NCBI GenBank assembly: GCA_038087875.1
Contig: CM075995.1
Span: forward strand, 6,698,001-6,762,000
Reading direction: 5' to 3'
Length of the DNA: 64,000 nucleotides
DNA from: Malacoraja senta
Taxonomy: Eukaryota
Shown here: one piece after another, positions 2,836 through 61,138 of the stretch
Layout of the letters: every line of letters begins with the position of its first letter
How positions within the stretch are numbered: the first letter of the stretch is position 1
Made by a program: the position numbers and the translations under genes
Notes under the pieces: generated by a model
What the model was told of the DNA's origin: nothing
What the model saw: the letters and a program-made list of their open reading frames with translations, nothing else
Databases searched by the model: none

Positions 2836-4267
2836 GCTTAAAAAACAGCATAAAAATGCAAATGCTTCTTATGGACAATAATAGCATTACAGCCAAATGC
2901 TTTACAATGCACAATATATAACTTCATGAGCAGGTATCTTGTGAGAAAGAAAAATTATTGTCAATATATGGCCCTATTTTAATTCAAAGGTCAAACATTG
3001 CCAACCAACAACTCCCAACCACCTGCCCATTGAGGACCCTTGGACTATCTTTAAGAAAGAACTGCAGATGCTGGAAAAATCAAAGGTAGACAAAAATGTT
3101 GGAGAAACTCAGCGGGTGAGGCAGCATCTATGGAGCGAAGGAATAGGTGACGTTTCGGTGACGTTCCAATTGGACTTGATCACGCACTAAACGTTATTCC
3201 CTTCATCATGTATCTGTACACTGTGGGTGGCTCGATTGTAATCATGTCTATTCTTTCCACTGACTGGTTAGCACGCAGCAAAACGCTTTTAACTGTACCT
3301 CAGTACACGTGACAATAAACTAAACTGAACATCAACAGCATGTGGTGAAGGACAACAGCAGGTGAATGGGATCAGATCAGATCAGATAGAATTTATTGTC
3401 ATTTAAACATTAAAATTCAAACAAAATTATGTTCAAATTCAAACAAAATTCAATTCAAACGAAATATAGATGGCTATATAAGTATTTCTCCAAGTTAAAA
3501 GATTAGTCTTTCATCACTCATTCAAATTCCTAAAATTTTGCACAACAACACTCTAGGGCAACCAATCAAGAAAATGGTTCAAGACCAATTTTAATTTTGT
3601 TTAGAGATATAGTTAGAAAGCCATAGAGTAATAAAATGAGGAAACAGGCCCTTCAGCCCGACTTGCCCACACCAACCATCATGTCCCATCTACATTCGTC
3701 CCACTTGCCTGCATTTGGCCCATATCCCCCTAAACCGGTCCTATTCATGTACCTGTCTAAATGTTTCTTAATTTTGCGATAGTCCCAGCCTCAACTACCT
3801 CCACTGGCAGCTTGTTCCATACACCCACCACCCTTTGTGTGAAAACGTTGCCCCTCAGATTCCTATTAAATCTTTCCCCCCTCACCTTAAACCTACGTCC
3901 TCTGGTTCTCGATTCCCCTACTCTGAGCAAGAGAATCTGAGCGTCTACCCAATCTCTTCCTTTCATGAGCAGATACAGCATGGAAAAGGGTCCTTCGGCA
4001 TGCCGAGTCCACAATAGCACTATCTCTAAAACTAAGGTACACAAACTACTAGGATATCTAGATAACTCAAATTACAAAATCAAATATAAGTAGAAACTTC
4101 TATAGACGTAAAGGAGGGTTCTGCAAAAGTTTGCAAATATTTATAAACCTTCAAGCAACAAGCAAGGAAAACACACAATTTTCCTCCTTCATAAGAACCT
4201 TTTTTAAGAGATACAGCACGGAAACAAGCCTTGCGGCACACCGAGTCCGATAAGCAATCCCCGTATA

Positions 4268-6900
4268 CATATAGATACATAGATACATAGAAAATAGGTG
4301 CAGGAGTAGGCCATTCGGCCCTTCGAGCCTGCACCGCCATTCAATACGATCATGGCTGATCATCCAACTCAGTATCCCGTACCTGCCTTCTCTCCATACC
4401 CCCTGATCCCTTTAGCCACAAGGGCCACATCTAATTCCTTCTTAAATATAGCCAATGAACTGGCCTCAACTACCCTCTGTGGCAGAGAGTTCCAGAGATT
4501 CACCACTCTCTGTGTGAAAAAGTTTTTCCTCATCTCGGTCCTAAAGGATTTCCCCCTTATCCTTAAGCTGTGACCCCTTGTCCTGGACTTCCCCAACATC
4601 GGGAACAATCTTCCTGCATCTAGCCTGTCCAACCCCATAAGAATCTTGTACGTTTCTATAAGATCCCCTCTCAATCTCCTAAATTCTAGCGAGTATAAGC
4701 CAAGTCTATCCAGTCTTTCTTCATATGAAAGTCCTGACATCCCAGGAATCAGTCTGGTGAACCTTCTCTGCACTCCCTCTATGGCTATAATGTCCTTCCT
4801 CAGATTTGGAGACCAAAACTGTACGCAATACTCCAGGTGTGGTCTCACCAAGACCCTGTACAACTGCAGTAGAACCTCGCTGCTCCTATACTCAAATCCT
4901 CTTGCTATGAAGGCCAACATACCATTCGCTTTCTTCACTGCCTGCTGCACCTGCATGCCTACTTTCAATGACTGGTGTACCATGACACCCAGGTCTCGCT
5001 GCATCTCCCCATTTCCTAATCGGCCACCATTTAGATAATAGTCTGCCTTCCCGTTTTTGCTACCAAAGTGGATAACCTCACATTTATCCACATTATACTG
5101 CATCTGCCAAACATTTGCCCACTCACCCAGCCTATCCAAGTCACCTTGCAGTCTCCTAGCATCCTCCTCACAGCTAACACTGCCCCCCAGCTTAGTGTCA
5201 TCCGCAAACTTGGAGATGTTGCTTTCAATTCCCTCGTCCAGATCATTAATATAAATTGTAAATAGCTGGGGTCCCAGCACTGAGCCTTGCGGTACCCCAC
5301 TAGTCACTGCCTGCCATTGTGAAAAGGACCCGTTTACTCCTACTCTTTGCTTCCTGTTTGCCAGCCAGTTCTCTATCCACATCAATACTGAACCCCCAAT
5401 ACCGTGTGATTTAAGTTTGTATCCTAATCTCTTATGTGGTACCTTGTCGAAAGCCTTCTGAAAGTCCAGATACAACACATCCACTGGTTCTCCCCTATCC
5501 ACTCTACTAGTTACATCCTCGAAAAATTCTATAAGATTCGTCAGACACGATTTACCTTTCGTAAATCCATGCTGACTTTGTCCAATGATTTCACCACTTT
5601 CCAAATGTGCTGCTATCCCATCTTTAATAACTGACTCTAGCAGTTTCCCCACTACCGATGTTAGACTAACTGGTCTGTAATTCCCCGTTTTCTCTCTCCC
5701 TCCCTTCTTAAAAAGTGGGGTTACGTTTGCAACCCTCCAATCCTCAGGAACTACTCCAGAATCTAAAGAGTTTTGAAAAAATTATCACTAATGCATCCAC
5801 TATTTCTGGAGCTACTTCCTTAAGTACTCTGGGATGCAGCCTATCTGGCCCTGGTGATTTATCGGCCTTTAATCCATTCAATTTACCCAACACCACTTCC
5901 CGACTAACCTGGATTTCACTCAGTTCCTCCATCTCCTTTGACCCGCGGCCCCCTGCTATTTCCGGCAGATTATTTATGTCTTCCTTAGTGAAGACGGAAC
6001 CAAAGTAGTTATTCAATTGGTCTGCCATATCCTTGTTCCCCATGATCAATTCACCTGTTTCTGACTGCAAGGGACCTACATTTGATTTAACTAATCTCTT
6101 TCTCTTCACATATCTATAAAAACTTTTGCAGTCAGTTTTTATGTTCCCTGCCAGTTTCCTTTCATAATCTATTTTCCCTTTCCTAATTAAGCCCTTTGTC
6201 CTCCTCTGCTGGTCTCTGAATTTCTCCCAGTCCTCTGGTATGCTGCTTTTTCTAGCTAATTTGTACACATCATCTTTTGCTTTGATACTATCCCTGATTT
6301 CCCTTGTTATCCACGGATGCACTACCTTCCTTGATTTATTCTTTTGCCAAACTGGGATGAACAATTTTTGTAGTTCATCCATGCAGTCTTTAAATGCCTT
6401 CCATTGCATATCCACCGTCAACCCTTTTAGAACTAATTGCCAGTCAATCTTGGCCAATTCACATCTCATACCCTCAAAGTTACCTTTCTTTAAGTTCAGA
6501 ACTGTTGTTTCTGAATTAACAATGTCACTCTCCATCCTAATGAAGAACTCAACCATATTATGATCACTCTTGCCCAAGGGGGCACGCACAACAAGTCTGC
6601 TAACTAACCCTTCCTCATTACTCAATACCCAGTCTAGAATAGCCTGCTCTCTCGTTGGTTCCTCTACATGTTGGTTTAGATAACTATCCCTCATACATTC
6701 CAAGAAATCCTCTTCCTCAGCACCCCTGCCAATTTGATTCACCCAATCTATATGTAGATTGAAGTCACCCATTATAACTGTTTTGCCTTTGTTGCACGCA
6801 TTTCTAATTTCCTGTTTGATGCCATCCCCAACTTCACTACTACTGCTAGGTGGCCTGTACACAACGCCCACCAGCGTTTTCTGCCCCACCAGCGTTTTCT
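4268..6900 (-). mobile_element. 5'-truncated CR1 (HER1-like) LINE inserted in an HE1 SINE
   Basis: ORFs 5744-6889 (GDFN, KSDH, KSPGPD) and 4369-5652 ([24 protein letters not shown]) are joined by a +1 frameshift in an A6 run (5776-5781). (tctatgta)n tail. SINE halves flank both sides. Confidence 0.93.
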
Positions 6901-43506: not shown

Positions 43507-44920
43507 AGAATCCCATGAAGCACAGATGCAATTTCCTGAGATGAGTTGTTGAGTACGCTGGATCTGCCGTCACTCCATGTGGCCAGGGAGGGTCATATCT
43601 TTCAGTCACCCATCTACGCTGTTCTTAGACTAATCTAATCGAACTTTATTGGACTAAGAAGGGAACTTTTTTTTCACCTTCCATCACAGTGAGGAATGTG
43701 GAGGAGTCACTGTGGTGGATGTTTATATTAAAATGTATTTTGTGTGTTCTGTTGCTTTTTATTAGTATGACTGTCTGGCAAATCAAATTCCTCGCATGTT
43801 GCAAAACATACTTCCTCGCATGTTGAAAATTCCTCGTATGTTGCAAAACATACTCCCTGCTACCTTCAGGTAGACTACCTGAAGACTGCAACGACCAGGT
43901 TCAGGAATACCTACTTCCCCACAGCCATCAGGCTATAAAACTTGGCTCGGACAAAACTCTGAACATTAATAGCCCATTATCTGTTATTTGCACTTTATCA
44001 GTTTATTTATTCATGTGTGTATATATTTATATAATGGTATATGGACACACTGATCTGTTTTGTAGTCAATGCCTACTATGTTCTGTTGTGCTGAAGCAAA
44101 GCAAGAATTTCATTGTCCTATCAGGGACACATGACAATAAACTCTCTTGACACTTGACTTGATACTTGGCTAATAAAGTATTATTATGATTATTATGATT
44201 ATGATTCTCTCTATATATTGTCATCAGTTCCCCCAAGATTCCATCACTCACCTAGACATGAGGTGATCTACGGCGATCAATTAACCATACCACACGATAC
44301 GATAGAACTTCATTTATCCCAGGAAGGATATTGATCTGCCAACAGTCATAAAACACGACGAGATATATGAAAAATGAAATTACAGTGACGAGTGGAAAGG
44401 ATTGGGGGATGTGCAAAGATTGGGGAGGGGGGGAGTCTACCCACGACAGAAGGGGGAGGAGTTGTACAGTTTGATAGCCACAGGAAGAAGGATCTCCTGT
44501 GGCGTTCTGTGTTGCATCTTGGTGGAACCAGTCTGTTGCTCCTCAAACTACCAACCCGCACATCTTTGGGATTTCAGTTTCAGTTTCAGTTTAAATTAGC
44601 CTACAAACCCGTACGTCTTTGGAGCGTGGGAGGAAACCGAAGATGTCGGAGAAAACTCCGCGCAGGTCACGGGAAGGACGTACAAACTCCGTACAGACAA
44701 AGACCCGTAGTTGGGATCGAACCCTGGTCTCCAGCGTTCTCAGTGCTGTAAGGCAGCAACTCTACCGCTGCGCCGCCGTGTGGGGGAAAGCAGAGCACCC
44801 GGAGAAATCCCACAGGGAGAACCTGCAAACTCCCACCCCGAGGTCAGGATGAATCCGGGTAAGGCAGCAACTCTAACCTCTAGTCATTGTGCCACCTAAG
44901 GAGGAAACCTTCAATAATTA

Positions 44921-45248
44921 GGGCGGTCACGGTGGCGCAGTGGTAGAGTTGCTGCCTTACAGCGAATACAGCGCCAGAGACTCGGGTTCGATCCGGATTA
45001 CGGGCGCTGTCTGTACGGAGTTTGTACGTTCTCCCGTGACCTGCGCGGGTTTTCTCCGAGATCTTCGGTTTCCTCCCACACTCCAAAGACGTGCAGGTTT
45101 GTAGGATGATTGGCTTGGTAAATGTAAAAATTGTCCCTAGTGGGTGTAGGATAGTGTTAATGTGCGGGGATCGCTGGTCGGCGCGGACTCGGTGGGCCGA
45201 AGGGCCTGTTTACGTGCTGTATCTCTAAACTAGACTAAACTAAACTAA
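44921..45248 (+). mobile_element. Full-length HE1-type tRNA-derived SINE (representative of dozens of copies, e.g. 651-929 -, 55832-56168 -)
   Basis: A-box tggcgcagtgg, B-box ggttcgatcc, central ggtttcctcccacactccaaagac domain, CR1-like tail gggccgaagggcctgttt...(taaac)n. Flanked by aataatt repeats. Confidence 0.9.
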
Positions 45249-46355
45249 TCTAATAATTCCTCTATTGCTATGTGTTTCCAACTAGTACAAACAGAAGGGG
45301 GCTTCAAAAGAAAAACGCGCGCAAAAATTCCCTGATGATAATTCTTTTTTATGACGTTCAACTTCAGACCTCATCACTTTGGGACGAATTTCTTTAGACA
45401 GAGTCATAGTCATAGAGTGATACAGCATGGAAACAGGCCCTTTGGCCCAACTTGCCCACATCAGCCAACATGTCCCAGCTAACCTAGTCCCACCTGCCCG
45501 TGTTTGGTCCGCATCCCTCCAAACCTGTCCTAACTATCCAGGGGGTGGTGAATCTGCGGAATTCTTTGCCACAGAAGGCTGTGGAGGCCGAGTCAATGGA
45601 TATTTTTAAGGCAGAGACAGAGCGATTCTCGGTTAGTACGGGGGTCAAGGGGCTATGGGGAGAAGGCAGGAGAATGGGATTAGGAGAGTTAGATCAGCCA
45701 TGATTGAATGGCAGAATAGACTTGATGGGCCAAATGGCCTCATTCTGCTGTCACTTATGAACTTATGAACCATTGGATTATATTGGGATCTTAAGGAGTT
45801 GCTGCCTCAAAAAGGCAGCCAGCATCGTCATAGACCCACACCACCCTGGCCACACACTCATTTCACCCCTGCCATTGGGAAGAAGGTACAGGAGCCTGAA
45901 AACTGTAACGCCCAGGATCAGGAACAGCTTCTTCCCTGCAGCCATCAGGCACTTGGACATCACAAAGCACTAACTAAACCATGAACTCCAGACTGTCTTG
46001 TTTGCAGGAAACGCTTGAGACATTATCTGTGCTTCTCTTTCCACAGATGCTGCCCAACCTGCTGAGTGTTTTCCTGCACTTTCCGTTTTTATTTCAGGTT
46101 GCCAGCATCTGCAATGGTTTTGATTTTTAGTTCCTGAAGGGCTTGTCCCTCTTGGCCGTCATTTACACGACAGGCCGGTAGTGACTGATGCGCGACGTCG
46201 AGCGACGGTCGCGCGCGTCATCATGCGTCCGCACAGCCGTCTGAAGCGCGGGACGTCATTTGAAGATGGACACAAAATGCAGGAGTAACTCAGCAGGACC
46301 GGCAGCATCTCTGGAGCGAAGGAATGGATGATGTTTCGGGTCCAGACTCTACTTC

Positions 46356-46390
46356 AGTCTGAAGAAGGGTCTCGACCCGAAACGTCACCC
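46356..46390 (+). ncRNA. Minimal hammerhead ribozyme motif (Penelope-associated)
   Basis: agt-CTGAAGA-a-GGGTC-tc-GACCC-GAAAC-GTC-acc: CUGANGA box, stem II, GAAA box, very short stem III and GUC cleavage triplet. Activity not shown. Confidence 0.65.
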
Positions 46391-46469
46391 ATTGCTTCTC
46401 TCCAGAGATGCTGCCGGGCCCGCTGAGTTACTCCAGCATTTTGTGTCTATCTCCAATCGTCTTGGCCCC

Positions 46470-46509
<40 letters not shown>

Positions 46510-46606
46510 CCGTAAATGTTTTTTTATTAGATTTTTAAACAAATGTACAATTTACAAGGAAGGGTAGAAAGCTCACACAATTTTAAAAACCATTTACACA
46601 TAATTA

Positions 46607-48730
46607 TCAAATTAAAATATTAACATTTTTATCTATAATATATTCAACCTCCTGCGGTGACCAGCGTTCACAGAAGGCCTCCACAGTCCCCGTGGACACC
46701 GCGTGTTCCCTCTCTAGGGACACGCGGGCACGGACGTAACCCCGGAAAAGGGGCAGGCAGCCGACCGCTGTGCGGCCGTCGACCGCCCGCTGCCTGGACC
46801 CGCGAATGGCCATCTTGGCCAGGCCCAGGAGCAGACCGACAGGGAGACCCCCTCCTCCCTCCCGACCCTCCCCCCCCTGTACCGGGTGCCCATAAATTAA
46901 TAGCGTTGGACTAAAATGTAGCCAAAACTTGAGGAGCAGCCCTTTCAGATACTCGAACAGGGGCTGCAACCTCTCGCACTCTATATACACGTGGAACACG
47001 GTCTCTTCCTCACCGCAGAAATGACAAGCAGGGGAAGAGTCCGTGAACCGGCTCAAGTACCTATTACAGGCCACGGCTTTGTGCAAAACTCTCCACCCCA
47101 GGTCCCCGATGTAAAGGGGGAGGACTCCCTTGTAGAGATACCTCCACTGGGGACCGCTCCCCTCGTCAGGTGGTAACACGGACCGCCAGGGTGTGTCTGG
47201 ACGGAAGACGAGGGCGAGGAAGTGGAGAGTGTGCAAGAGCAGCCTGTACAGTACTCGCCTCTCCGCGCCACGGAATGGCACACTGGGCATCTCAGAAAGG
47301 CGGCTCATGTTGCATGGGGCCGGCTCTCGGGGAGGGTCCCGGGCCATGGGCCCTATGAACAATTCCGACTGAGCGGGGGTAAGCTCGTCCGGAATCGCTC
47401 CATGCACACGCCTCTCCTCGATACCCACCGTCACAGCCACGACACCCCCCTCCCCCTGAGGAGCAGGGCCCTGGCTGAAGGTGACCAAATTCCTGGCCTT
47501 CAGGACTTCACGGTAAAAGCCAGGCAACTCCCGCCTAGCGCGTCGACTCATGCCCGCTACCGGGAGCCGGGAGCCCTCCTGAAGGCACCGCCCCTGACGG
47601 AAAAAGTACGTCGCCAGCACGTGCCATTTAGGAGGGTAGTCCGAGTAGACGTACCTCCGCAGGGTCCTGAGTCGGAGAGCCGCCACCTGGGTACGAATAC
47701 AGACCAGCGCCTGACCACCCTCCTCCAACGGGAGACTCAGAACCCCAGCAGAGACCCAGTGGTTCCTCTCCCCCCAGAAGAAGTTGACCAATCTCCTCTG
47801 TAACATGGTTATAAAATAAGAGGATGGGACCATAGTGGCCATCCGGTACCACAGTAGAGAGGCCACCAGCTGGTTTATAACTATAGCCCTGCCCCGGTAA
47901 GAGAGCACACCAAGTAGGCCTGACCAACGTCCCAGCCGGGCGACCACTTTCGCCTCCAGCTCCTGCCAGTTCGCCGGCCACCCCTCCTCAGCGGGACTCA
48001 GGTAGACCCCCAGATAAAGGAGGTGCGTGGTACTCCACGCAAAACCTGCCATCTCCTCCGGCAGGGAGTCCACCTGCCACCCACCCATCAAGAGACCAGA
48101 ACACTTCCCCCAGTTGATCCTGGCGGAGGATGCAGCCGAGAAAACCTGCTGGCACTCACGCATCCTCCGCAGGTCAACAGGGTCGGTGAACATCAGAAGG
48201 ACATCATCGGCGTAGGCCGAGAGAACCACCTCCATCCCCGGCCCCGGTAAAGCCAGGCCTGTCAACCGCCTCCGGAGAAGGCACAGGAAAGGCTCGACAC
48301 AGATGGAATACAGCTGGCCGGACATGGGACATCCCTGACGAACCCCCCTCCCAAAGGGAATGGGGGCCAACAATGAGCCGTTGACCTTAACAAGGCATTC
48401 TGCAGCAGTATATAACAGTCGGACCCAGGCCACAAAATGCGGTCCAAATCCGAACGCCTGCAGAGTCCCAAGAAGGTAGTCGTGCTCCACCCTGTCAAAC
48501 GCCTTCTCCTGGTCGAGGGAGAGAAAGGCGACCGACTGACCAGCCCCCTGGGACAGATGGATCAGGTCCCGGAGCAGATGGATATTGTCCTGGATGGACC
48601 GGCCCGGGACTGTGTACGACTGGTCAGGGTGGATCACCTGGGACAGCACGGGACCCAGGCGATTTGCCAATGCCCTTGCAAAGACTTTATAGTCCGTGCT
48701 GAGGAGAGAGACCGGGCGCCAGTTCTTCAA
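46607..48730 (-). pseudogene. Duplicated 3' part of Tx1 ORF2 (RT plus zinc finger), 5'-truncated
   Basis: ORF-track translation is identical to the C-terminal ~707 aa of ORF2, offset by 2265 bp. It begins directly after the poly(A) of the full-length copy. Confidence 0.9.
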
Positions 48731-48871
48731 AAGGCGAAGATCGCCCTTCTTTTTTTTTTTTTTTTTTTTTTTTTCCGTAAATGTTTTTTTATTAGATTTT
48801 TAAACAAATGTACAATTTACAAGGAAGGGTAGAAAGCTCACACAATTTTAAAAACCATTTACACATAATTA

Positions 48872-51800
48872 TCAAATTAAAATATTAACATTTTTATCTA
48901 TAATATATTCAACCTCCTGCGGTGACCAGCGTTCACAGAAGGCCTCCACAGTCCCCGTGGACACCGCGTGTTCCCTCTCTAGGGACACGCGGGCACGGAC
49001 GTAACCCCGGAAAAGGGGCAGGCAGCCGACCGCTGTGCGGCCGTCGACCGCCCGCTGCCTGGACCCGCGAATGGCCATCTTGGCCAGGCCCAGGAGCAGA
49101 CCGACAGGGAGACCCCCTCCTCCCTCCCGACCCTCCCCCCCCTGTACCGGGTGCCCATAAATTAATAGCGTTGGACTAAAATGTAGCCAAAACTTGAGGA
49201 GCAGCCCTTTCAGATACTCGAACAGGGGCTGCAACCTCTCGCACTCTATATACACGTGGAACACGGTCTCTTCCTCACCGCAGAAATGACAAGCAGGGGA
49301 AGAGTCCGTGAACCGGCTCAAGTACCTATTACAGGCCACGGCTTTGTGCAAAACTCTCCACCCCAGGTCCCCGATGTAAAGGGGGAGGACTCCCTTGTAG
49401 AGATACCTCCACTGGGGACCGCTCCCCTCGTCAGGTGGTAACACGGACCGCCAGGGTGTGTCTGGACGGAAGACGAGGGCGAGGAAGTGGAGAGTGTGCA
49501 AGAGCAGCCTGTACAGTACTCGCCTCTCCGCGCCACGGAATGGCACACTGGGCATCTCAGAAAGGCGGCTCATGTTGCATGGGGCCGGCTCTCGGGGAGG
49601 GTCCCGGGCCATGGGCCCTATGAACAATTCCGACTGAGCGGGGGTAAGCTCGTCCGGAATCGCTCCATGCACACGCCTCTCCTCGATACCCACCGTCACA
49701 GCCACGACACCCCCCTCCCCCTGAGGAGCAGGGCCCTGGCTGAAGGTGACCAAATTCCTGGCCTTCAGGACTTCACGGTAAAAGCCAGGCAACTCCCGCC
49801 TAGCGCGTCGACTCATGCCCGCTACCGGGAGCCGGGAGCCCTCCTGAAGGCACCGCCCCTGACGGAAAAAGTACGTCGCCAGCACGTGCCATTTAGGAGG
49901 GTAGTCCGAGTAGACGTACCTCCGCAGGGTCCTGAGTCGGAGAGCCGCCACCTGGGTACGAATACAGACCAGCGCCTGACCACCCTCCTCCAACGGGAGA
50001 CTCAGAACCCCAGCAGAGACCCAGTGGTTCCTCTCCCCCCAGAAGAAGTTGACCAATCTCCTCTGTAACATGGTTATAAAATAAGAGGATGGGACCATAG
50101 TGGCCATCCGGTACCACAGTAGAGAGGCCACCAGCTGGTTTATAACTATAGCCCTGCCCCGGTAAGAGAGCACACCAAGTAGGCCTGACCAACGTCCCAG
50201 CCGGGCGACCACTTTCGCCTCCAGCTCCTGCCAGTTCGCCGGCCACCCCTCCTCAGCGGGACTCAGGTAGACCCCCAGATAAAGGAGGTGCGTGGTACTC
50301 CACGCAAAACCTGCCATCTCCTCCGGCAGGGAGTCCACCTGCCACCCACCCATCAAGAGACCAGAACACTTCCCCCAGTTGATCCTGGCGGAGGATGCAG
50401 CCGAGAAAACCTGCTGGCACTCACGCATCCTCCGCAGGTCAACAGGGTCGGTGAACATCAGAAGGACATCATCGGCGTAGGCCGAGAGAACCACCTCCAT
50501 CCCCGGCCCCGGTAAAGCCAGGCCTGTCAACCGCCTCCGGAGAAGGCACAGGAAAGGCTCGACACAGATGGAATACAGCTGGCCGGACATGGGACATCCC
50601 TGACGAACCCCCCTCCCAAAGGGAATGGGGGCCAACAATGAGCCGTTGACCTTAACAAGGCATTCTGCAGCAGTATATAACAGTCGGACCCAGGCCACAA
50701 AATGCGGTCCAAATCCGAACGCCTGCAGAGTCCCAAGAAGGTAGTCGTGCTCCACCCTGTCAAACGCCTTCTCCTGGTCGAGGGAGAGAAAGGCGACCGA
50801 CTGACCAGCCCCCTGGGACAGATGGATCAGGTCCCGGAGCAGATGGATATTGTCCTGGATGGACCGGCCCGGGACTGTGTACGACTGGTCAGGGTGGATC
50901 ACCTGGGACAGCACGGGACCCAGGCGATTTGCCAATGCCCTTGCAAAGACTTTATAGTCCGTGCTGAGGAGAGAGACCGGGCGCCAGTTCTTCAAAAGGC
51001 GAAGATCGCCCTTCTTGGGCAGCAGGACAACAACTGCCCTGCGCCAAGAGAAAGGCATCTCCCCGGTCGCCAGGCTCTCCCCCAGGACCTTCATATAGTC
51101 GCCCCCCAGGACATCCCAGAAGGCTCTAAGGTACTCCACAGTCAGCCCATCCAGCCCTGGAGACTTGCCCCTCCTAAGCTGGTGCAGGGCACCAGTCAAC
51201 TCCTCCAGAGTTAGGGGATCATCCAGGTGTTCAGCCACATCATTGCACACTACGGGTAAGCCCTCCCACAGGACTTCTTGCGCCTCCCCACTCGATGTGC
51301 CAGCTGAGAACAGAGTCCTGTAGAAAGACCGAACCGAGGCACCAATGCTCTCTGGATCTGTGACAGAGGAGCCATCATCCGCAAGCAACTCTACAAGCTG
51401 CCTGCGGGCTCCTCGCCCCTTCTCCAGAGAAAAGAAAAAGGGGGAGGCGCGGTCCAGGTCGTGCAACATCTGGACCCGCGACCTCACATACGCACCCCGG
51501 GACCTCCTAAGCTGCAAGTCCCTCAGTGCTCCCTTCTTCTCCTGGTATTCCTCCCACTCACACGAAGCCCCACCAGTCTGATCCAGATGAGCCTCCGAGT
51601 CGAGCAACTCTCTCTCAAGCCGTCCGATCTCGGATTCCCGCCCCTTGGTCGACCCCCTCGCATAGTCCTGGCAAAACTGACGGACGTAGACTTTCCCCAC
51701 GTCCCACCACTGCCTTAGGGAAAGGAAACGCCCCTGCCTCTCTCTCCACCTCACCCAGAACTGCCTGAATGAATCCCGGAATCGGCAATCCTCCAACAGC

Positions 51801-52549
51801 TGGCTATTTAAATGCCAGTACGCGGACCCTGCCCGTGTGCGCGCTGGGATAAAGTCCACTCGCACCAGGCAATGGTCCGAGCATGGCGCCGGCTGCATGG
51901 AGGCTGCCGAAACACAAGAGACATAGGCCTTGGACACGTATAAATGATCAATACGGGACCCACCACCCTCAAACCTGTACGAGAAGGCGTTAGAGTCAGG
52001 ATGGAAATTCCTCCAAGCATCTACCAGCTCAAAAGAGTCCACCATCTCCCTCAAAGTCTTCACTGCTCCCGGGTCACGCTGAACGCCAGAGCGATCTCTT
52101 GTCTCAAGGGCACAATTAAAATCTCCCCCAAGAAAAACACACTCCCCACGGTCGATAGTATTCAACAACGTGGTCACTTCCCTTGTTAAGCGCGTCTGCA
52201 TTGCGCCGATCTTGGGGGCGTACACATTAACGAAGTGTAATGGCACACCATCCAAGCGCACGGCCAGATACAGCAAACGGCCTGGTACAACCTCCTGCAC
52301 TTTGAGGATCTCCGGCTGGAAAGACGGGGCCAACAGGAAGGCTACTCCACTCGATTTGGAGCTGAGATGACTCATATAGACCCCCCCTTCCCACTCCAGG
52401 AGCCATGTGGGTTCATCACTAGCCACAGTGTGTGTTTCCTGCAGGAAGCTCACCGCATATCTCCCGTCTCTGAGCACTGAGAGATGGTGAAACCTACGGA
52501 GAGACCCCCTGCCCCCATTGATATTAAGGCTGGCTATAGTGAGCTTCAT
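48872..52549 (-). CDS. Tx1 ORF2p, intact 1225 aa (APE endonuclease, reverse transcriptase, C-terminal zinc finger)
   Basis: APE motifs NING, LQETH, GDFN, RIDH, SDH. RT motifs KNWRPVSLL, DQEKAFD, GVRQGCP, YADD, YLG. C-terminal CHFC..ETVFH...C. No stops or frameshifts. Confidence 0.96.
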   Translation of the reverse strand: MKLTIASLNINGGRGSLRRFHHLSVLRDGRYAVSFLQETHTVASDEPTWLLEWEGGVYMSHLSSKSSGVAFLLAPSFQPEILKVQEVVPGRLLYLAVRLDGVPLHFVNVYAPKIGAMQTRLTREVTTLLNTIDRGECVFLGGDFNCALETRDRSGVQRDPGAVKTLREMVDSFELVDAWRNFHPDSNAFSYRFEGGGSRIDHLYVSKAYVSCVSAASMQPAPCSDHCLVRVDFIPARTRAGSAYWHLNSQLLEDCRFRDSFRQFWVRWRERQGRFLSLRQWWDVGKVYVRQFCQDYARGSTKGRESEIGRLERELLDSEAHLDQTGGASCEWEEYQEKKGALRDLQLRRSRGAYVRSRVQMLHDLDRASPFFFSLEKGRGARRQLVELLADDGSSVTDPESIGASVRSFYRTLFSAGTSSGEAQEVLWEGLPVVCNDVAEHLDDPLTLEELTGALHQLRRGKSPGLDGLTVEYLRAFWDVLGGDYMKVLGESLATGEMPFSWRRAVVVLLPKKGDLRLLKNWRPVSLLSTDYKVFARALANRLGPVLSQVIHPDQSYTVPGRSIQDNIHLLRDLIHLSQGAGQSVAFLSLDQEKAFDRVEHDYLLGTLQAFGFGPHFVAWVRLLYTAAECLVKVNGSLLAPIPFGRGVRQGCPMSGQLYSICVEPFLCLLRRRLTGLALPGPGMEVVLSAYADDVLLMFTDPVDLRRMRECQQVFSAASSARINWGKCSGLLMGGWQVDSLPEEMAGFAWSTTHLLYLGVYLSPAEEGWPANWQELEAKVVARLGRWSGLLGVLSYRGRAIVINQLVASLLWYRMATMVPSSYFITMLQRRLVNFFWGERNHWVSAGVLSLPLEEGGQALVCIRTQVAALRLRTLRRYVYSDYPPKWHVLATYFFRQGRCLQEGSRLPVAGMSRRARRELPGFYREVLKARNLVTFSQGPAPQGEGGVVAVTVGIEERRVHGAIPDELTPAQSELFIGPMARDPPREPAPCNMSRLSEMPSVPFRGAERRVLYRLLLHTLHFLALVFRPDTPWRSVLPPDEGSGPQWRYLYKGVLPLYIGDLGWRVLHKAVACNRYLSRFTDSSPACHFCGEEETVFHVYIECERLQPLFEYLKGLLLKFWLHFSPTLLIYGHPVQGGEGREGGGGLPVGLLLGLAKMAIRGSRQRAVDGRTAVGCLPLFRGYVRARVSLEREHAVSTGTVEAFCERWSPQEVEYIIDKNVNILI

Positions 52550-54648
52550 TTTGAAAGTACACTTGATCTTTTACCCGTCCCCGGTGATGGATTGGAGCCG
52601 CCCCTACCCTTCTTCCCTCTCTTTAGGACCTTAAAAAGCTCTTGGAACTGGCGCCTCTCATTTCTTACTAGCCCCGCCTCATTCCCCTTCTTCTGAAGGA
52701 TGGCATGAATGGACTGCATGGGCGCCATCAGGTCCGACCAGCGGTCGACAGCCAACTCCACCTTGTTCCTACTCCCTCTAGTGTCCTTTAAGAACTTCCG
52801 AAGTTCCCAGACTTCGACAAGTTGAGACACGGGGCCGCGGGTGGAGCAGTCCGTCAACTCATTGTCGATGGACTCCGGGTACCCCTCCTCCTCACACTCA
52901 ATGTCCGAGCCCGAGTCCAGATGGTTACTACTCTCAGCCGCCTCGCTCACCCCTCCCTGTGAGGTGGGCATTCCAGCCACATCACACAGTCCCTCCTCTG
53001 TCACCATCCCACCCCCAGGATCAGTGACAGGGGCAGGTACCGGTGCCTCTGACCGCGGCAAGCTTTCTGACAGTTGGCCAGTCTCCTGCACGCTCCCATC
53101 GCCCTCTGTAACCAGATTGGGCACAGTGAACTCAGAGCAAGTCTCCGGGCCTTGCTGTAAGCGGGTCTGTCTGGAGTCCGACCTAAGGACACGATCCAAA
53201 ACGATCTTGCCCTCCTCCGCACCCAGGGTATCCGCCCCTGCACCGTCACCCAGAGAGTCCCCGTCCCCCACCACCAGGTGAATCACCCCACTGTGTCCCT
53301 CAGGGGCCGATGTTACTGGAGTCTCCCCTGCTCCCTCAACCAGTGGGGCATTACACCCCTCAACTGGGCTTGTAGCCTCAACGGGGAGCTCATGTTGGGG
53401 ACCCACCCCCTCACCCAATTCCCCCCCTTCAGGCTGCCCCTGGTCATCCACTAAGCTAGCAGACATGTTTTCTGGGGGAACAGCCCCCAAGAGCAATATA
53501 TCGCCACTCTCAGGTGGCCCCAGACCTACAGAGGCATCCTCCCCCTCAGAGGAAACTTGCCCTGGGTACCCCACCTCAACAGGAGGGGAAGGCTCCCCTT
53601 CAGGTTGCCCCTGAACTTCAGGGCCCTTCTCTGTATCGGACGACCCATGCCTCCTCCTCTTCGAACCACTGGCGTACGGTGGTACGGTGAGCTCCATTGC
53701 AGAAGCCTCTACCTCCACATTACCTTCTATCTCAGAGGCGAGCATGAAATTATCTGCTTCCTGGGGTCCCGCTTGGAGGTGATCATCTTCTAGGGGATCA
53801 GCCTGGAGATGTTTCTTCTTTTTATTGACTTTCCTCCCCTGCTGATGCTCCCAAACCTTCCCATCCACCCTACGCACTTCTCCGGCATCCACCGCCACAG
53901 GTACGGGACATGGGGGTGGTGGGGGGATAGGGGTTGGGGGTAGGGGAGTAAAGCCTTCACGGGCCACCGTGGTAAAACCAGCAGCCCCAGATGGGCCAGT
54001 AGTGCTTTCCCGTGCCATCGTGGTGGAACTGGCAGCCCGGGTCCTGGGACAATTCTTGCGAAAATGCCCCACCTGTTTGCAACCGTGACAACGCACTTGG
54101 CCCGCATTCCAGAACACGCGATAGGAGAAATCATCCACCTCCACCTCAAAACTCCCCTCCGTGTCCATCCCCTTTGCCAACTGTATATACACGCGACGCT
54201 TGAACGTATATACATGCTGCATCTCAGGATCGTCAAACCTGTACAACAGTTTGGTGAGCCCTGACCGCACCTCCCCCAGCTTCCTTACATGTGGGAGCAG
54301 GAGCGCATCCGGAACAAAAGTGGGAACATTGGACAGAATGACCGGCAAAACGGGACCCCCCCATGGGTCCACCGCCGCGAAAATCCCCCCTGCTGTTACC
54401 CCCCTTTCCAGAGCCAGAGCCACCGCCTGTTCAGTCTTTAGTATAACCACAACCTTCCCACTGACCACCGCGCCCGAGACTATGGCTTTCTTGCCAACAG
54501 TCTCACCCAACGCATCTAGAAAGGCCTTTAAGGGCAGGTTGCTCTTCATGTACATTTTTACACCATATGTGCGCCCCATCAACTCATGGCCCTCAGTCTC
54601 TGAGACTGCCGACCGCGCGACAGCTGCATAACTCTGAGGGGCCGCCAT
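52546..54648 (-). CDS. Tx1 ORF1p (gag-like RNA-binding protein, ~700 aa from MAAPQSYAAVAR)
   Basis: ATG in aagATGG context at 54648. N-terminal SYAAVAR motif, CHGCKQVGHFRKNC zinc knuckle (CX2CX4HX4C), long acidic/proline-rich region. Its stop codon overlaps the ORF2 ATG (ATGA). Confidence 0.88.
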   Translation of the reverse strand: MAAPQSYAAVARSAVSETEGHELMGRTYGVKMYMKSNLPLKAFLDALGETVGKKAIVSGAVVSGKVVVILKTEQAVALALERGVTAGGIFAAVDPWGGPVLPVILSNVPTFVPDALLLPHVRKLGEVRSGLTKLLYRFDDPEMQHVYTFKRRVYIQLAKGMDTEGSFEVEVDDFSYRVFWNAGQVRCHGCKQVGHFRKNCPRTRAASSTTMARESTTGPSGAAGFTTVAREGFTPLPPTPIPPPPPCPVPVAVDAGEVRRVDGKVWEHQQGRKVNKKKKHLQADPLEDDHLQAGPQEADNFMLASEIEGNVEVEASAMELTVPPYASGSKRRRHGSSDTEKGPEVQGQPEGEPSPPVEVGYPGQVSSEGEDASVGLGPPESGDILLLGAVPPENMSASLVDDQGQPEGGELGEGVGPQHELPVEATSPVEGCNAPLVEGAGETPVTSAPEGHSGVIHLVVGDGDSLGDGAGADTLGAEEGKIVLDRVLRSDSRQTRLQQGPETCSEFTVPNLVTEGDGSVQETGQLSESLPRSEAPVPAPVTDPGGGMVTEEGLCDVAGMPTSQGGVSEAAESSNHLDSGSDIECEEEGYPESIDNELTDCSTRGPVSQLVEVWELRKFLKDTRGSRNKVELAVDRWSDLMAPMQSIHAILQKKGNEAGLVRNERRQFQELFKVLKRGKKGRGGSNPSPGTGKRSSVLSK

Positions 54649-56924
54649 CTTTAGGGCGTGGCACAACACACAAAGTATCAGTAGTTTATATCCAAAGCAG
54701 TCTTTCTGCTGTTGCTGCACCTCCACTCTTTTGCAGCAGTTAAATAGTCCTGTGAAGGCTTTCTTGGCAAGCAACAGAAGCAGTCTCCTCCTGATAAGAT
54801 AGGAAATGTCCGTGCCAATCCTCCCCGTCGTAAAAAAATGGATCTTCCTTATGCTTCTTCCTCAGGCCTCCGACTCCTCCCCGGCCTCAACGAAATCCAA
54901 GGCACTGTTGCCGTTCTTACCCAGCCCACCTGGACCGGGCAAGTCGGTGTAGGAGGGAGCTTTCCGATGTTACTGACCACAAACACCACTCTAGACTCAG
55001 CTCCCACTCGTTCAAGTGTAACTTGGCCTTCCGCCAGCCACTGCCGCTCCTACGACTTTACAGATACACGGACAAATCCTCCCTAATTAGAGGAATCCTT
55101 GAACAAAGAAAGTCTCTGCAGATCGACAAAGCTCTGAACTGCAAAGTCTGACTGCTTTTGTTTCTCCCCGCCAAACAAAACCTTCTGAAAAGTTCATCAA
55201 ATCCTCCCCGCCAGCAGAACAGCTCCTCACCTGGCCCCGCTCTGGGAGTAGGAGTGGGGGCGGATCCGGATCCGCAACGGCCGTGAGCCCCAGGCCGAGC
55301 TCGGCGATCGTTTGCCTGCTTCTGCTGCTGTTGGAGGTGAGACGCGCCAGGGTCTTGGGCCTGTCCCATTTTGGCCATCAGTTACGCGACAGGCCGGTGG
55401 CGCGTGAAGATTTCATGCAGGACGAAGTCCACACTCCTCCACTCCATGCGCCCGTCCCGCGCTACCCACACGCTAGCAGGTCGTGTAAATGGCGCGCGAA
55501 AGACGGCCAAGTGGGACAGGCCCTTGACTCGTGCAAAGTTCTCCAAAGTGCTTCTCCATAGCAACAGTTATTACCTGCATTCAGAAATGCCACACAGCAT
55601 TGGATGCAAGTTTAGAGTGGGCTCAATGTGGCCATTAAAATATAAGGGCGGCATGGTGCCGCAGTGGTAGAGCTGCTGCCTCACAAAGCCAGAGACCCGG
55701 GTTCGATCCCGACTACGGGTGCTATCTGTACGGAGTTTGTACCCGTGGTTTTTCCCCGGGTGCTCCGGTTTCCTCCCACATTCCAAAGAAGTGCAAGTCT
55801 CCAGGTTAATTAGCCTCTGTAAATTGCCTCTGGTTTAGTTTAGTTTAGTTTTTAGTTTAGATACAGCACGGAAACATGCCCTTCTGCCCACCGGGTCCGC
55901 GCCGACCAGCGATCCCCGCACATTAACACTATCCTACACCCACTCGGGACAATTTTTTTTACATTTACACCAAGCCAATTAACCTGCAAACCCGCACGTC
56001 TTTGGAGTGTGGGAGGAAACCGAAGATCTCGGAGAAAACCCACGCAGGTCACGGGGAGAACGTACAAACTCCGTACAGACAGCACCCGTAGTCCGGATGG
56101 AACCCGGGTCTCTGGCGCTGCATTCGCTGTGAGGCAGCAACTCTACCGCTGCGCCACCGTGACCGCCCTGTGTGTAGGATGTGAAAGGGGTGTAACATTG
56201 AACGAGTGTATGGGTGATCGATGGTCGGCATGGACTCGGTGGGCCAAAGGGCCTGTTTCCATGCTGTATCTCCCTAAATCTTGAGGTCCATTCTTATGAA
56301 TAATTAAATCCGGCAACAATCAGTTAAGCTGGAAATGTCAGATACCAGAGAGTATAGAAGATAGACACAAAATGCTGGAGTAACTCAGCGGGACAGGCAG
56401 CAGCATCTCTGGAGAGAAGGAATGGGTGACGTTTCGGGTCGAGACCCTTCTTCTGACTGAGAGTTGGGGGAGAGGGCCTGGAGAAGGGTCTCGACCTTTC
56501 ATTCATTTATTCCATATCTCTCTACATCACGGTCTATCTCTCTCATTTCCCTTTCCCCTGACTGGTCTGAAGAAGGGTCTCGACCCCGAGTTACTCCAGC
56601 ATTTTGTGTCTATCTTGGGTTTGAACCAGCATCTGCAGTTCCTTCCTACACCAGAGGGTATAGGATTGGTCTGAGAGTGGCAAAGTTTAAAGGAGATGTG
56701 CGGGGCCTTCTCCCCATGGCCTCTGACACCCGTACTAATCAAGAATCTATCTATCTCTGCTTTAAAAAACATGCATTGACTTGGCCTCCACCGCCATCTG
56801 TCCATTGATAGAGACAACGTGCTTTTGTTTAACAAAAATAAATGTAATGAATTATTTACAAAAATGATGTGTACAATACATAATAATACAAACAAACCCA
56901 CCACCATGATACAAAGCCATGATC

Positions 56925-57380
56925 TCATCTGCTGAGAGAATGGAGCGTCTGGGCTTGTATACTCTGGAGTTTAGAAGGATGAGATTGAGAGATCTTATTG
57001 AAACATACGATTATTAAGGGTTTGGACACGCAAGAGGCAGGAAACATGTTCCCGATGTTGGGGGAGTCCAGAACCAGGGGCCACAGTTTAAGAATAAGGG
57101 GTAAGCCATTTAGAACGGAGGCGAGGAAACACTTTTTCTCACAGAGAGTTGTGAGTCTGTGGAACTCTCTGCCTCAGAGTGCGGTGGAGGCCGGTTCTCT
57201 GGATACTTTCAAGAGAGAGCTAGATAGGGCTTTTAAAGATAGCGGAGTGAGGGGATATGGGGAGAAGGCAGGAACGGGGTACTGATTGGGGATGATCAGC
57301 CATGATCACATTGAATGGCGGTGCTGGCTCGAAGGGCCGAATGGCCTACTCCTGCACCTATTGTCGAATGTCTATTGTCT
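56925..57380 (+). mobile_element. CR1 3' fragment
   Basis: MFPMLGESRTRGHSLRIRG...RGYGEKAGTGY followed by the CR1 3' UTR. Confidence 0.85.
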
Positions 57381-57389
57381 AAAGGGAAA

Positions 57390-57645
57390 CAAATATTCTT
57401 AAATTCTAAATATTAAATAACTATTTCCCCGTCCTTATTGAGGATTAGTACCACCGCCCAGCGGTTTCAGAAACCCCCCAGGGTGCCCGTGGACAACGCC
57501 TAGTCCCTCCCTAACACCACCCGGGCGCGGACGTAACCCCGGAAAAGGGGCAGGCAGCCGGCTCGGGCAGGGCCCTCTTCCGCCTGGCGCCGTGACTCGC
57601 GGATGGCCAGCTTGGCCAGGCCCAGGAGCAAACCCAACCAGGACA
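57390..57645 (-). mobile_element. 3' fragment of a second, diverged Tx1 subfamily
   Basis: Encodes GLLLGLAKLAIRESRRQAEEGPARAGCLPLFRGYVRARV, homologous to the ORF2 C-terminus but clearly diverged. Confidence 0.85.
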
Positions 57646-57925
57646 TCCTGTGCATCACAACGTGTTTGCAGGGCTGAACCTTATCTAACACCCTAAAACA
57701 CTTCCATTATCGACCCATCATGGCGTTGCGATTGCAACAGTCAGTTTCTCGAGCTGTCACAGTTCCACAAAAGGGATTAGACGAAACGGCCAGTTTGTCT
57801 CATTGCCAGACTCTTTGGTGCTGTAACTGCCATCAGGCTATTAAACACTACAACCTCCACTGTCAGAGTGAGACTAAATGCAAATTGGAGGAACAGCATC
57901 TCATATTTCATTTTGGGCAACTAAA

Positions 57926-58506
57926 AGGCCCGTCTCACGAGTCTGCGGTCATTGGCGGCGAAACGGGAAGAATCTGCCGCCATAGACCGCGCACTCGTGA
58001 GAACGTACAATTCCGGGGCCGCACGGTGCTAAAATAAAATCGACAATGTCGAAAAATATAATCTTACCGCACAACCTCCACCAGTGATGCACGAGTGCGG
58101 CACGGCCGCCCGCACGGGCCGCCGCCAGTGTGGCTCGAGCGCCATGCGTCAAACCTCCACTGCCACAGCCTCCGCCAGTGACGCATGTGCCTCCGCCAGT
58201 GAGGCACGTGTGCTGCACGGCCGCAGGCACAGCCACCGCTACAGCGCCGCGATCAGGATGGCCGCCGCCACAGCCGCCGCTGGTGAGTCACGTGCGGCGG
58301 CCCGACGTCATCGCAGTCGGCCCGCTCTTTTTTTTACCTACCGCAAGCACGTGGGACCCGCCGTGTTTGAATTACTTGGCCCCCGCGCAGCATCCGTGCG
58401 GCGCTCCGGTGGATAGGCTCGCCGCTCTCGCCGTTGCCGCGCGGTCCCCGCTACCGGCGACGCCGCGCTTCACCGCCGATGACCGCAAATAGGTAAGACA
58501 GAGCCT
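57926..58506. mobile_element. Harbinger-type MITE inserted in a Penelope fragment
   Basis: ~40-bp imperfect TIRs (aggcccgtctcac..gcggtcattggcggcgaaacg versus cgcttcaccgccgatgaccgc..gtaagacagagcct). Penelope sequence resumes at ttacagcccagcggt. Confidence 0.75.
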
Positions 58507-60760: not shown

Positions 60761-60779
60761 ACTCCAAAGATGTGCAGGT

Positions 60780-61007
60780 CCTAGAGAGGGAACACGCGGT
60801 GTCCACGGGGACTGTGGAGGCCTTCTGTGAACGCTGGTCACCGCAGGAGGTTGAATATATTATAGATAAAAATGTTAATATTTTAATTTGATAATTTTGT
60901 GTAAGTGTTTTTTAAATTGTGTGAGCTTTCTACCCTCCCTTGTAAATTGTACATTTGTTTAAAAATCTAATAAAAAAAACATTTACGGAAAAAAAAAAGA
61001 AAAAAAA
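60780..61007 (+). mobile_element. Short 5'-truncated copy of the same Tx1 family inserted in an HE1 SINE
   Basis: Near-identical to the 3' end of the large element. Poly(A) present. TSD aaagatgtgcaggt at 60766-60779 and 61008-61021. Confidence 0.9.
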
Positions 61008-61138
61008 AAAGATGTGCAGGTTTGTAGATAAATTGGCTTTGGTAAGAATTGCAAATTGTCCCTAGTGTGTGGGATAGTGTTAGTGTCGCGGGTGATCGCT
61101 GGTCAGTGTGGAGTCGGTGTGGTTTCTGTGCTGTATCT

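What the first reader, a model, noticed from the sequence alone, without database searches (positions are those of the whole stretch)
46475..51016. Seamless 2265-bp head-to-tail 3' duplication of the Tx1 element inside a single TSD: possible self-targeted retrotransposition
Seen: in element orientation the structure is TSD - full element - poly(A) - last 2265 bp again - poly(A) - TSD. The duplicate starts at internal site gccc|AAGAAGGG (51016 region; junction at ~48749). That site resembles the family's two genomic target sites here (tccc|AGAGCGG and ctcc|AAAGATG, i.e. CC|ARR). Inference: a second copy may have primed at an endonuclease-like site within the resident element, and its cDNA annealed to the homologous upstream flank, leaving no visible 5' junction. 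Alternatives are an RT template jump from a truncated cDNA to a second poly(A) RNA, or a false duplication in assembly, since the two copies look identical.
Basis: partly seen in the sequence, partly recalled or inferred. Interest (0 to 1): 0.78.

Follow-up and report, generated by a model that had tools for sequence, protein, structure and literature searches.

The report
LINE re-inserting into its own copy
A young jumping gene carries an exact second copy of its last 2.2 kb, likely because a new copy started inserting inside the old one and was finished by copying it; in several side-by-side copies elsewhere in this genome the newer copy's front end matches its older neighbour, though an assembly error at this one spot is not excluded.

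Summary
The structure is as described: TSD, full 6457-bp LINE (both ORFs open), A25, element positions 4216-6457 again, A36, TSD. The two 2242-bp copies have 0 differences, and the junction occurs once in the assembly. No read test was possible.

The family is target-specific (ACTCCC|AGAGCGGGGCCA in a MITE). It re-inserts at occupied sites more often than chance (about 18-20 multi-copy loci, about 5 expected, 1175 sites empty). In several such tandems the upstream copy is young at its 3' end but matches the older neighbour at its 5' end. A short new cDNA completed by copying the resident would explain the identity seen here.

A second TSD-less tail-to-internal case (G000:C348) has non-identical copies and starts at a strong target-like site. 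The window's own site matches only the CCC|A core (rank 131 of 1024 A-starts), so the motif is weak evidence here.

My odds: self-primed insertion with resident-templated completion 0.45, template jump 0.25, assembly artefact 0.15, DNA-level duplication 0.10, other 0.05. Tail-to-internal LINE tandems and cDNA-resident chimeras are already known.

The parts
55232..55243 (-). 5' target-site duplication AGAGCGGGGCCA, preceded by CTACTCCC
48775..55231 (-). Full-length LINE copy, 6457 bp; 1 singleton allele among 87 sampled copies (very young)
52546..54648 (-). ORF1, 700 aa, open; no Pfam hit; a CCHC-like knuckle is visible in the translation
48872..52549 (-). ORF2, 1225 aa, open: Exo_endo_phos + RVT_1 + weak zf-RVT; best solved relative is human L1 ORF2p (E 8e-85)
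51010..51023 (-). Internal site GCTGCCC|AAGAAGG (element 4215|4216) at which the duplicate starts; candidate nick site, core match only
48750..48774 (-). First tail, A25, joined to element position 4216 with no TSD (2-nt AA overlap)
46510..48751 (-). Second copy of element positions 4216-6457, identical to 48775-51016
46474..46509 (-). Second tail, A36
46463..46474 (-). 3' target-site duplication AGAGCGGGGCCA
55244..55523 (-). Left part of the host MITE (terminal repeat GGGCCTGTCCCACTT; an inner copy of it at 55357-55368)
46139..46462 (-). Right part of the host MITE, with an inner 98-bp hairpin (46260-46456) and the other terminal repeat
60766..61021 (+). Separate 209-bp 5'-truncated copy of the family at an off-target site (ACTCC|AAAGATG), 14-bp TSD

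Best explanation
A very young, target-specific L1/Tx1-type LINE carries an exact tandem repeat of its last 2242 bp inside one TSD, likely made when the element's endonuclease nicked an internal CCC|A site, a new cDNA was primed there, and that cDNA was likely completed by copying the resident element. Inferred steps: (1) bottom-strand nick at 4215|4216; (2) poly(T) priming and a short cDNA of the 3' end; (3) the cDNA end anneals to the same sequence in the resident downstream of the nick and is extended on resident DNA back past the nick; (4) top-strand fill-in. The 2.2-kb duplication is then in effect one long target-site duplication with no visible 5' junction. It may have happened after the first insertion or during the same integration episode.
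For: Shown for the family. (a) 5'-anchored chimeras in TSD-separated tandems: C1b shares 33 rare alleles with its downstream neighbour up to position 2475 and is young-type from about 2500; C7a shares 22 up to 4420; C7b shares 3 up to 266. That is 3 clear cases of 13 pairs tested; 2 more (C796, C5773, perhaps one locus) are compatible. (b) 6 of 8 tandems with a truncated resident share its 5' breakpoint (chance about 0.022 per pair). In two of them the new copy carries the resident's allele 6200G, against C in 182 alignment rows. (c) About 18-20 of about 95 filled canonical sites hold 2 or more copies (my count) against about 5 expected with 1175 empty sites. 4 of 33 off-target loci are also doubles. 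(d) Second TSD-less case, G000:C348: the copies share a 28-bp deletion and 3 SNPs seen in no other sampled copy, yet differ at 4 substitutions and one G. The three upstream-specific changes lie in the last 150 nt, and the start is at TGTCCC|AG, rank 12 of 6440. (e) 20 of 33 off-target inserts are 268 nt or shorter, and 13 of 86 sampled copies match the window for 250 nt or more from the 3' end, so identity needs no identical full-length source.
Against: The window's site is a weak match: rank 191 of 6440 positions, 131 of 1024 A-starts, above only 5 of 31 real off-target sites; G at -4 in 0 of 21 CCC-type sites. The new upstream tail should be the longer one, as in 10 of 13 TSD-separated pairs, but it is shorter in both TSD-less cases (25 vs 36, 13 vs 26). 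Both TSD-less cases sit in very young copies (1 and 3 singletons), whereas most residents hit at the TSD are old; this fits a single-episode origin. The C348 upstream 3' haplotype has no second copy in the assembly, so its separate source is not shown. C348's register is ambiguous by 2 nt and was chosen after seeing the sequence. With zero differences, the window holds no allele that could show a crossover.
Confidence: 0.45

Rival explanations
1. Single-event template jump: reverse transcription began at the normal target, stopped at 4216, and the cDNA's terminal TT paired with the poly(A) of a second RNA from the same source, which was copied to full length.
For: Gives identity, a single TSD and the extreme youth (1 singleton in 6457 bp) without extra steps. 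There is a 2-nt AA overlap at the junction. Truncated copy 3' of a full copy is the expected order. C348 has a snap-back piece of the kind a free cDNA end could make. Template jumping by R2 RT is mentioned in PMC2718515 (passage).
Against: Does not predict CCC|A at both TSD-less junctions (ordinary truncations 1 of 45). At C348 both RNAs would need a source with a frameshifting 28-bp deletion found nowhere else in 89 alignment rows. The 45 TSD-flanked truncated copies show no other poly(A) RNA captured at the 5' end, but they were chosen for having a TSD next to the truncation.
Confidence: 0.25
2. Assembly artefact: two overlapping contig ends, one stopping in the poly(A), were joined head to tail instead of being merged.
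For: 0 differences between the copies; first tail shorter than second; a gap 3 kb away. The assembly holds near-identical duplicated loci (L172/L173, L208/L209, C796/C831; L114 and C1a share 12 doubletons).
Against: No N at the junction. The junction is unique, so it was not borrowed from another assembled locus. The same architecture occurs at C348 with non-identical copies. The start lies at one of 31 CCC|A sites in 6457 bp. Both copies keep 8 alleles that differ from the young majority, so polishing did not pull them to the family average.
Confidence: 0.15
3. DNA-level tandem duplication: replication stalled or broke in the poly(A) tail and restarted 2.2 kb upstream on a 2-nt AA microhomology.
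For: Predicts identity and a shorter upstream tail, seen in both cases. The 13-nt inverted insert at C348 resembles a templated repair insertion (recalled, not tested). Internal deletions are common in older copies.
Against: Such events accumulate with residence time, yet both cases are in the youngest class. Does not predict CCC|A starts or the 3'-tip clustering at C348.
Confidence: 0.1
4. Two-step routes: a poly(A)-to-4216 DNA circle recombined into the resident, or an ordinary TSD-separated tandem later lost the TSD and the first 4215 bp of the second copy.
For: Zorro3 makes circles joined from the 3' poly(A) to internal positions (PMC3510499, passages). TSD-separated tandems with long resident-copied tracts exist here (C7a).
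Against: Needs two rare steps in a copy with 1 singleton. There is no evidence of circles for this family.
Confidence: 0.05

Closest known systems
Tail-to-internal non-LTR tandems in Drosophila (McGurk and Barbash 2018, PMC5932611; passages)
   Same: 3' end of one copy joined to an internal position of the next; described as common.
   Different: Ascribed to double insertion with the TSD kept in the junction; 6 of 10 mapped jockey dimers had distinct truncations. Here there is no TSD in the junction, and 6 of 8 TSD-separated tandems with a truncated resident share the breakpoint.
R1 tandem arrays (Stage and Eickbush 2009, PMC2718515; passages) and SINEU-3 tandems (Kojima 2015, PMC4494074; passages)
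   Same: A target-specific element re-inserts into the TSD beside a resident copy (at its 5' end for R1), as in about 20 loci here.
   Different: Copies are separated by the TSD. The passages read do not describe 5' completion from the resident or a start inside the element.
Alu inserts completed by recombination with a resident Alu (Wagstaff et al. 2012, PMC3415434; passages), and L1 templated insertions likened to SDSA (10.1101/2024.08.27.596794; passages)
   Same: Chimera with the 5' part from the genomic copy and the 3' part from the new cDNA, without direct repeats (6 of 226 Alu inserts).
   Different: Cultured cells or tumours; the Alu cases give deletions or rearrangements and the L1 templates are typically under 250 bp. 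Here duplications of 0.3-4.4 kb are seen in an assembled animal genome, at sites already occupied by the family.
Tx1-clade elements that target non-autonomous DNA transposons (Xenopus Tx1 in Tx1D; Tx1-mobilised SINEU in Mariner-N4; PMC4494074)
   Same: Two-ORF APE-RT element with a fixed site in a MITE, TSD mostly 12-15 bp.
   Different: Different target (CTACTCCC|AGAGCGGGGCCA in a ~680-bp MITE). Clade placement by tree was not tested.

Membership tests
L1/Tx1-group non-LTR retrotransposon | ORF1 plus ORF2 with APE endonuclease, RT and C-terminal zinc region | tested here: met
L1/Tx1-group non-LTR retrotransposon | Poly(A) tail, TSD, frequent 5' truncation | tested here: met
Tx1 clade | Target-sequence preference, often within another repeat | tested here: met
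   93 of 99 rows are followed by the canonical target or a close variant; the target lies in a MITE
Tx1 clade | RT phylogeny groups with Tx1 rather than L1 | not tested
TPRT insertion at an internal site (self-insertion) | 3' junction at the family's endonuclease motif | tested here: inconclusive
   CCC|A core met; -4 and -5 positions poorly met in the window; well met at C348
TPRT insertion at an internal site (self-insertion) | Upstream copy has a 3' tip from another source | tested here: inconclusive
   0 differences in the window; clustered differences at C348 but no source found
Ordinary double insertion (R1-type tandem) | TSD between the two copies | tested here: not met
   A25 joins position 4216 directly
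Real genomic structure | Reads span the junction | not testable with these tools
   Best run holds 0.69 of the words and carries many other letters, so likely another species

The most novel reading that the evidence does not exclude
This Tx1-type family homes to its own copies. Pairing between the new cDNA (or RNA) and a resident copy steers or rescues integration, so that occupied sites, even weak off-target ones and weak CCC|A sites inside the element, gain new copies far more often than over a thousand empty perfect targets. The window is the internal-nick end of that spectrum.
Probability: 0.3. Interest if true: 0.72.

Novelty: new variant of a known kind. Interest (0 to 1): 0.47.

Why it matters
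How the 5' end of a LINE cDNA is joined is still open. This family offers about 25 natural re-insertion events in one genome with alleles that mark where new cDNA ends and resident-copied DNA begins. If homology to a resident raises insertion success, it explains tandem growth and the mosaic haplotypes of young copies. It also means that some apparently full-length new copies are short cDNAs completed from old ones, which matters for dating LINE activity. The single window locus, taken alone, is a modest and unverified example.

Tried and rejected
Read support: the look-up of sequencing runs listed no RNA holder and no run with more than 0.69 of the words. Four runs laid on 47900-49600 were contigs with many fixed differences and no piece across the junction; this is uninformative. 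The flank was not tested in any run.

A second haplotype of this locus: the search with flank 45900-46200 found only the window itself.

Recurrence of the same junction: none. A source for the C348 upstream 3' tip: none.

Full-length new cDNA from another sampled copy: rejected, 6 or more differences. Insertion of a second copy into the poly(A) with an all-A TSD: not favoured, because none of 31 off-target sites lies in an A-run.

Rfam found nothing at gathering level in 44000-58000. The ESM Atlas gave only unnamed EN-RT clusters. Earlier scan notes: none.

The first PWM had one site (L040) off by one base; it was corrected. L171 and L183 were dropped as repeats of L053's secondary target. L036, L042 and L177 were left out for lack of a TSD; L015 was left out for a gap; L220 and L221 arrived after the matrix was built.

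The broad 3'-end listing was cut at 100 of 673 rows and was not used for counts.

Literature: searches gave 0 papers; one search gave one unrelated paper; Gilbert et al. 2005 is recalled only (not held). No supplements were read.
Full report
Observation. The window holds, on the minus strand, a 12-bp TSD (55243-55232), a 6457-bp LINE (55231-48775), A25, element positions 4216-6457 again (48751-46510), A36 and the TSD (46474-46463). The two 2242-bp copies have 0 differences. ORF1 (700 aa) and ORF2 (1225 aa; endonuclease, RT, weak zf-RVT) are open in the first copy; the best solved relative is L1 ORF2p. The junction string occurs once in the 1.94-Gb assembly. No second haplotype of the locus was found, and no usable reads.

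The family. In one search, 93 of 99 rows are followed by AGAGCGGGGCCA or a close variant. The target lies in a ~680-bp MITE with GGGCCTGTCCCACTT ends, and 1175 exact empty targets remain. Nine 3'-end pattern searches (175 rows with overlaps) cover most but not all tail types of this subfamily. From them I took 31 distinct off-target sites, with consensus (R)CTCC(C)|A: C at -2 in 29, C at -1 in 28, A at +1 in 28. Off-target inserts are short: 20 of 33 are 268 nt or less.

Re-insertion beside residents. About 18-20 of about 95 filled canonical sites carry 2-3 copies separated by the TSD (my count; some may be haplotig duplicates). About 5 are expected if sites were chosen at random (P 7e-6 for 18); unequal site accessibility could also cause this. 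Four of 33 off-target loci are doubles too (L039, L040, L100, L175). The upstream copy is usually the younger, as described for R1 (PMC2718515, passages).

Resident-templated 5' ends. Of 13 TSD-separated pairs tested for rare alleles, three are clear 5'-anchored chimeras. C1b has 3 differences from its neighbour in the first 2500 bp, then 156, while it differs from the young majority at only 6 positions after 2500. C7a shares 22 rare alleles up to 4420, and C7b shares 3 up to 266. C796 and C5773 fit the pattern over about 1100 bp but lack rare markers. C7a_2/3 share alleles up to 5401. C1a, C2a and C5093 share none; C2b, C8, C2c and C5007 share 2-3 scattered alleles. Of 8 tandems whose resident is truncated, 6 share the breakpoint (L020, L039, L040, L072, L074, L100) and 2 do not (L116, L175); chance per pair is 0.022. 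In L020, L039 and L100 the two copies carry alleles of different subfamilies, so they are not DNA duplicates. In L039 and L100 the new copy carries the resident's 6200G, against C in 182 alignment rows. I infer that new cDNAs often anneal to the resident downstream of the nick and are extended on it.

A second TSD-less case. G000:C348 reads TSD, full copy, G-A13, a 13-nt inverted piece of nearby element sequence, positions 4416-6457, A26, TSD. Both copies share a 28-bp deletion and SNPs 4855, 5398 and 6181 not seen in other sampled copies. They differ at 4455 and 5273 (downstream) and at 6311, 6320 and one extra G (upstream). This locus is therefore not a copy-paste artefact. Its start fits a nick at TGTCCC|AG (4417|4418; rank 12 of 6440), though the register is ambiguous by 2 nt. 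The upstream 3' haplotype has no other copy in the assembly.

The window's own site. GCTGCCC|AA has the CCC|A core (31 such sites in the element) but G at -4, seen in 0 of 21 CCC-type real sites. It ranks 191 of 6440 positions and 131 of 1024 A-starts, and scores above 5 of 31 real sites in leave-one-out. Alone it does not separate a nick from a jump with A-microhomology. Together with C348 it is 2 of 2 at CCC|A against 1 of 45 ordinary truncation points.

Identity. The nearest other copy differs at 6 positions over 4216-6457, so a 2.2-kb cDNA from another sampled copy is excluded. A short cDNA completed from the resident needs identity only at the tip: 13 of 86 sampled copies match the window for 250 nt or more from the 3' end. 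The resident has open ORFs, so its own RNA is also a possible source (inference).

Against the main reading. Both TSD-less cases have the shorter tail upstream, opposite to 10 of 13 TSD-separated pairs. Both sit in very young copies. Random off-target choice would give far fewer than two self-insertions (my estimate 0.01-0.02), unless residents attract or rescue insertions, which the tandem excess suggests but does not prove. The assembly has duplicated loci, and the junction has no read support.

Verdict. My odds, which are judgement and not computed posteriors: nick-primed with resident-templated completion 0.45 (including the variant in which this happens during the first integration), template jump 0.25, artefact 0.15, DNA-level duplication 0.10, other 0.05.

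Known relatives. Tail-to-internal non-LTR tandems (PMC5932611, passages), TSD re-insertion (PMC2718515 and PMC4494074, passages), cDNA-resident chimeras (PMC3415434 and 10.1101/2024.08.27.596794, passages) and poly(A)-to-internal circles (PMC3510499, passages) are in print. Passages of PMC2881922 and PMC5105311 added nothing. Searches found no paper combining re-insertion at occupied sites with resident-templated 5' ends; the library lacks most subscription papers, so this is not proof of novelty. The Tx1 name is recalled and was not tested by a tree.

Noticed in passing
G000:C796:77440 and C831:175723 (L076, L102, L165): After the tail comes a short piece resembling element positions ~6175-6190, then an inverted piece 5620-5495; the inversion starts at another GCCC|A site. 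Probably one locus held twice.
   Followed up: partly
element positions 6245-6257, 6194, 6158, 6087: Ordinary 5' truncation points cluster; 12 of 45 fall in 6245-6257, which suggests a pause or structure in the RNA.
   Followed up: no
element positions 6019-6204: Young copies show shuffled combinations of about 9 shared alleles, a mosaic pattern that cDNA-resident chimerism could produce.
   Followed up: no
L053, L171, L183; L099, L220: Two secondary targets are hit repeatedly at different loci (TACTCCC|AAGCCTT and GCTCCC|GAGGTCAGG), each apparently in another repeat.
   Followed up: no
L166 / L042 (G000:C1601:5247-5281): A young copy whose tail is followed by a GAC/GAA trinucleotide array, with no TSD seen.
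   Followed up: no
window 46260-46456: A 98-bp hairpin inside the MITE, made of a short repeat common in the window; it recalls Penelope-like hammerhead repeats (from memory), with no Rfam hit at threshold.
   Followed up: partly
L172/L173, L208/L209, L048/L050/L051/L201, L114 vs C1:373004583: Near-identical duplicated loci, either segmental duplications or unpurged haplotypes.
   Followed up: no
window 57458-57634: A 78%-identical fragment of an older relative of the family.
   Followed up: no
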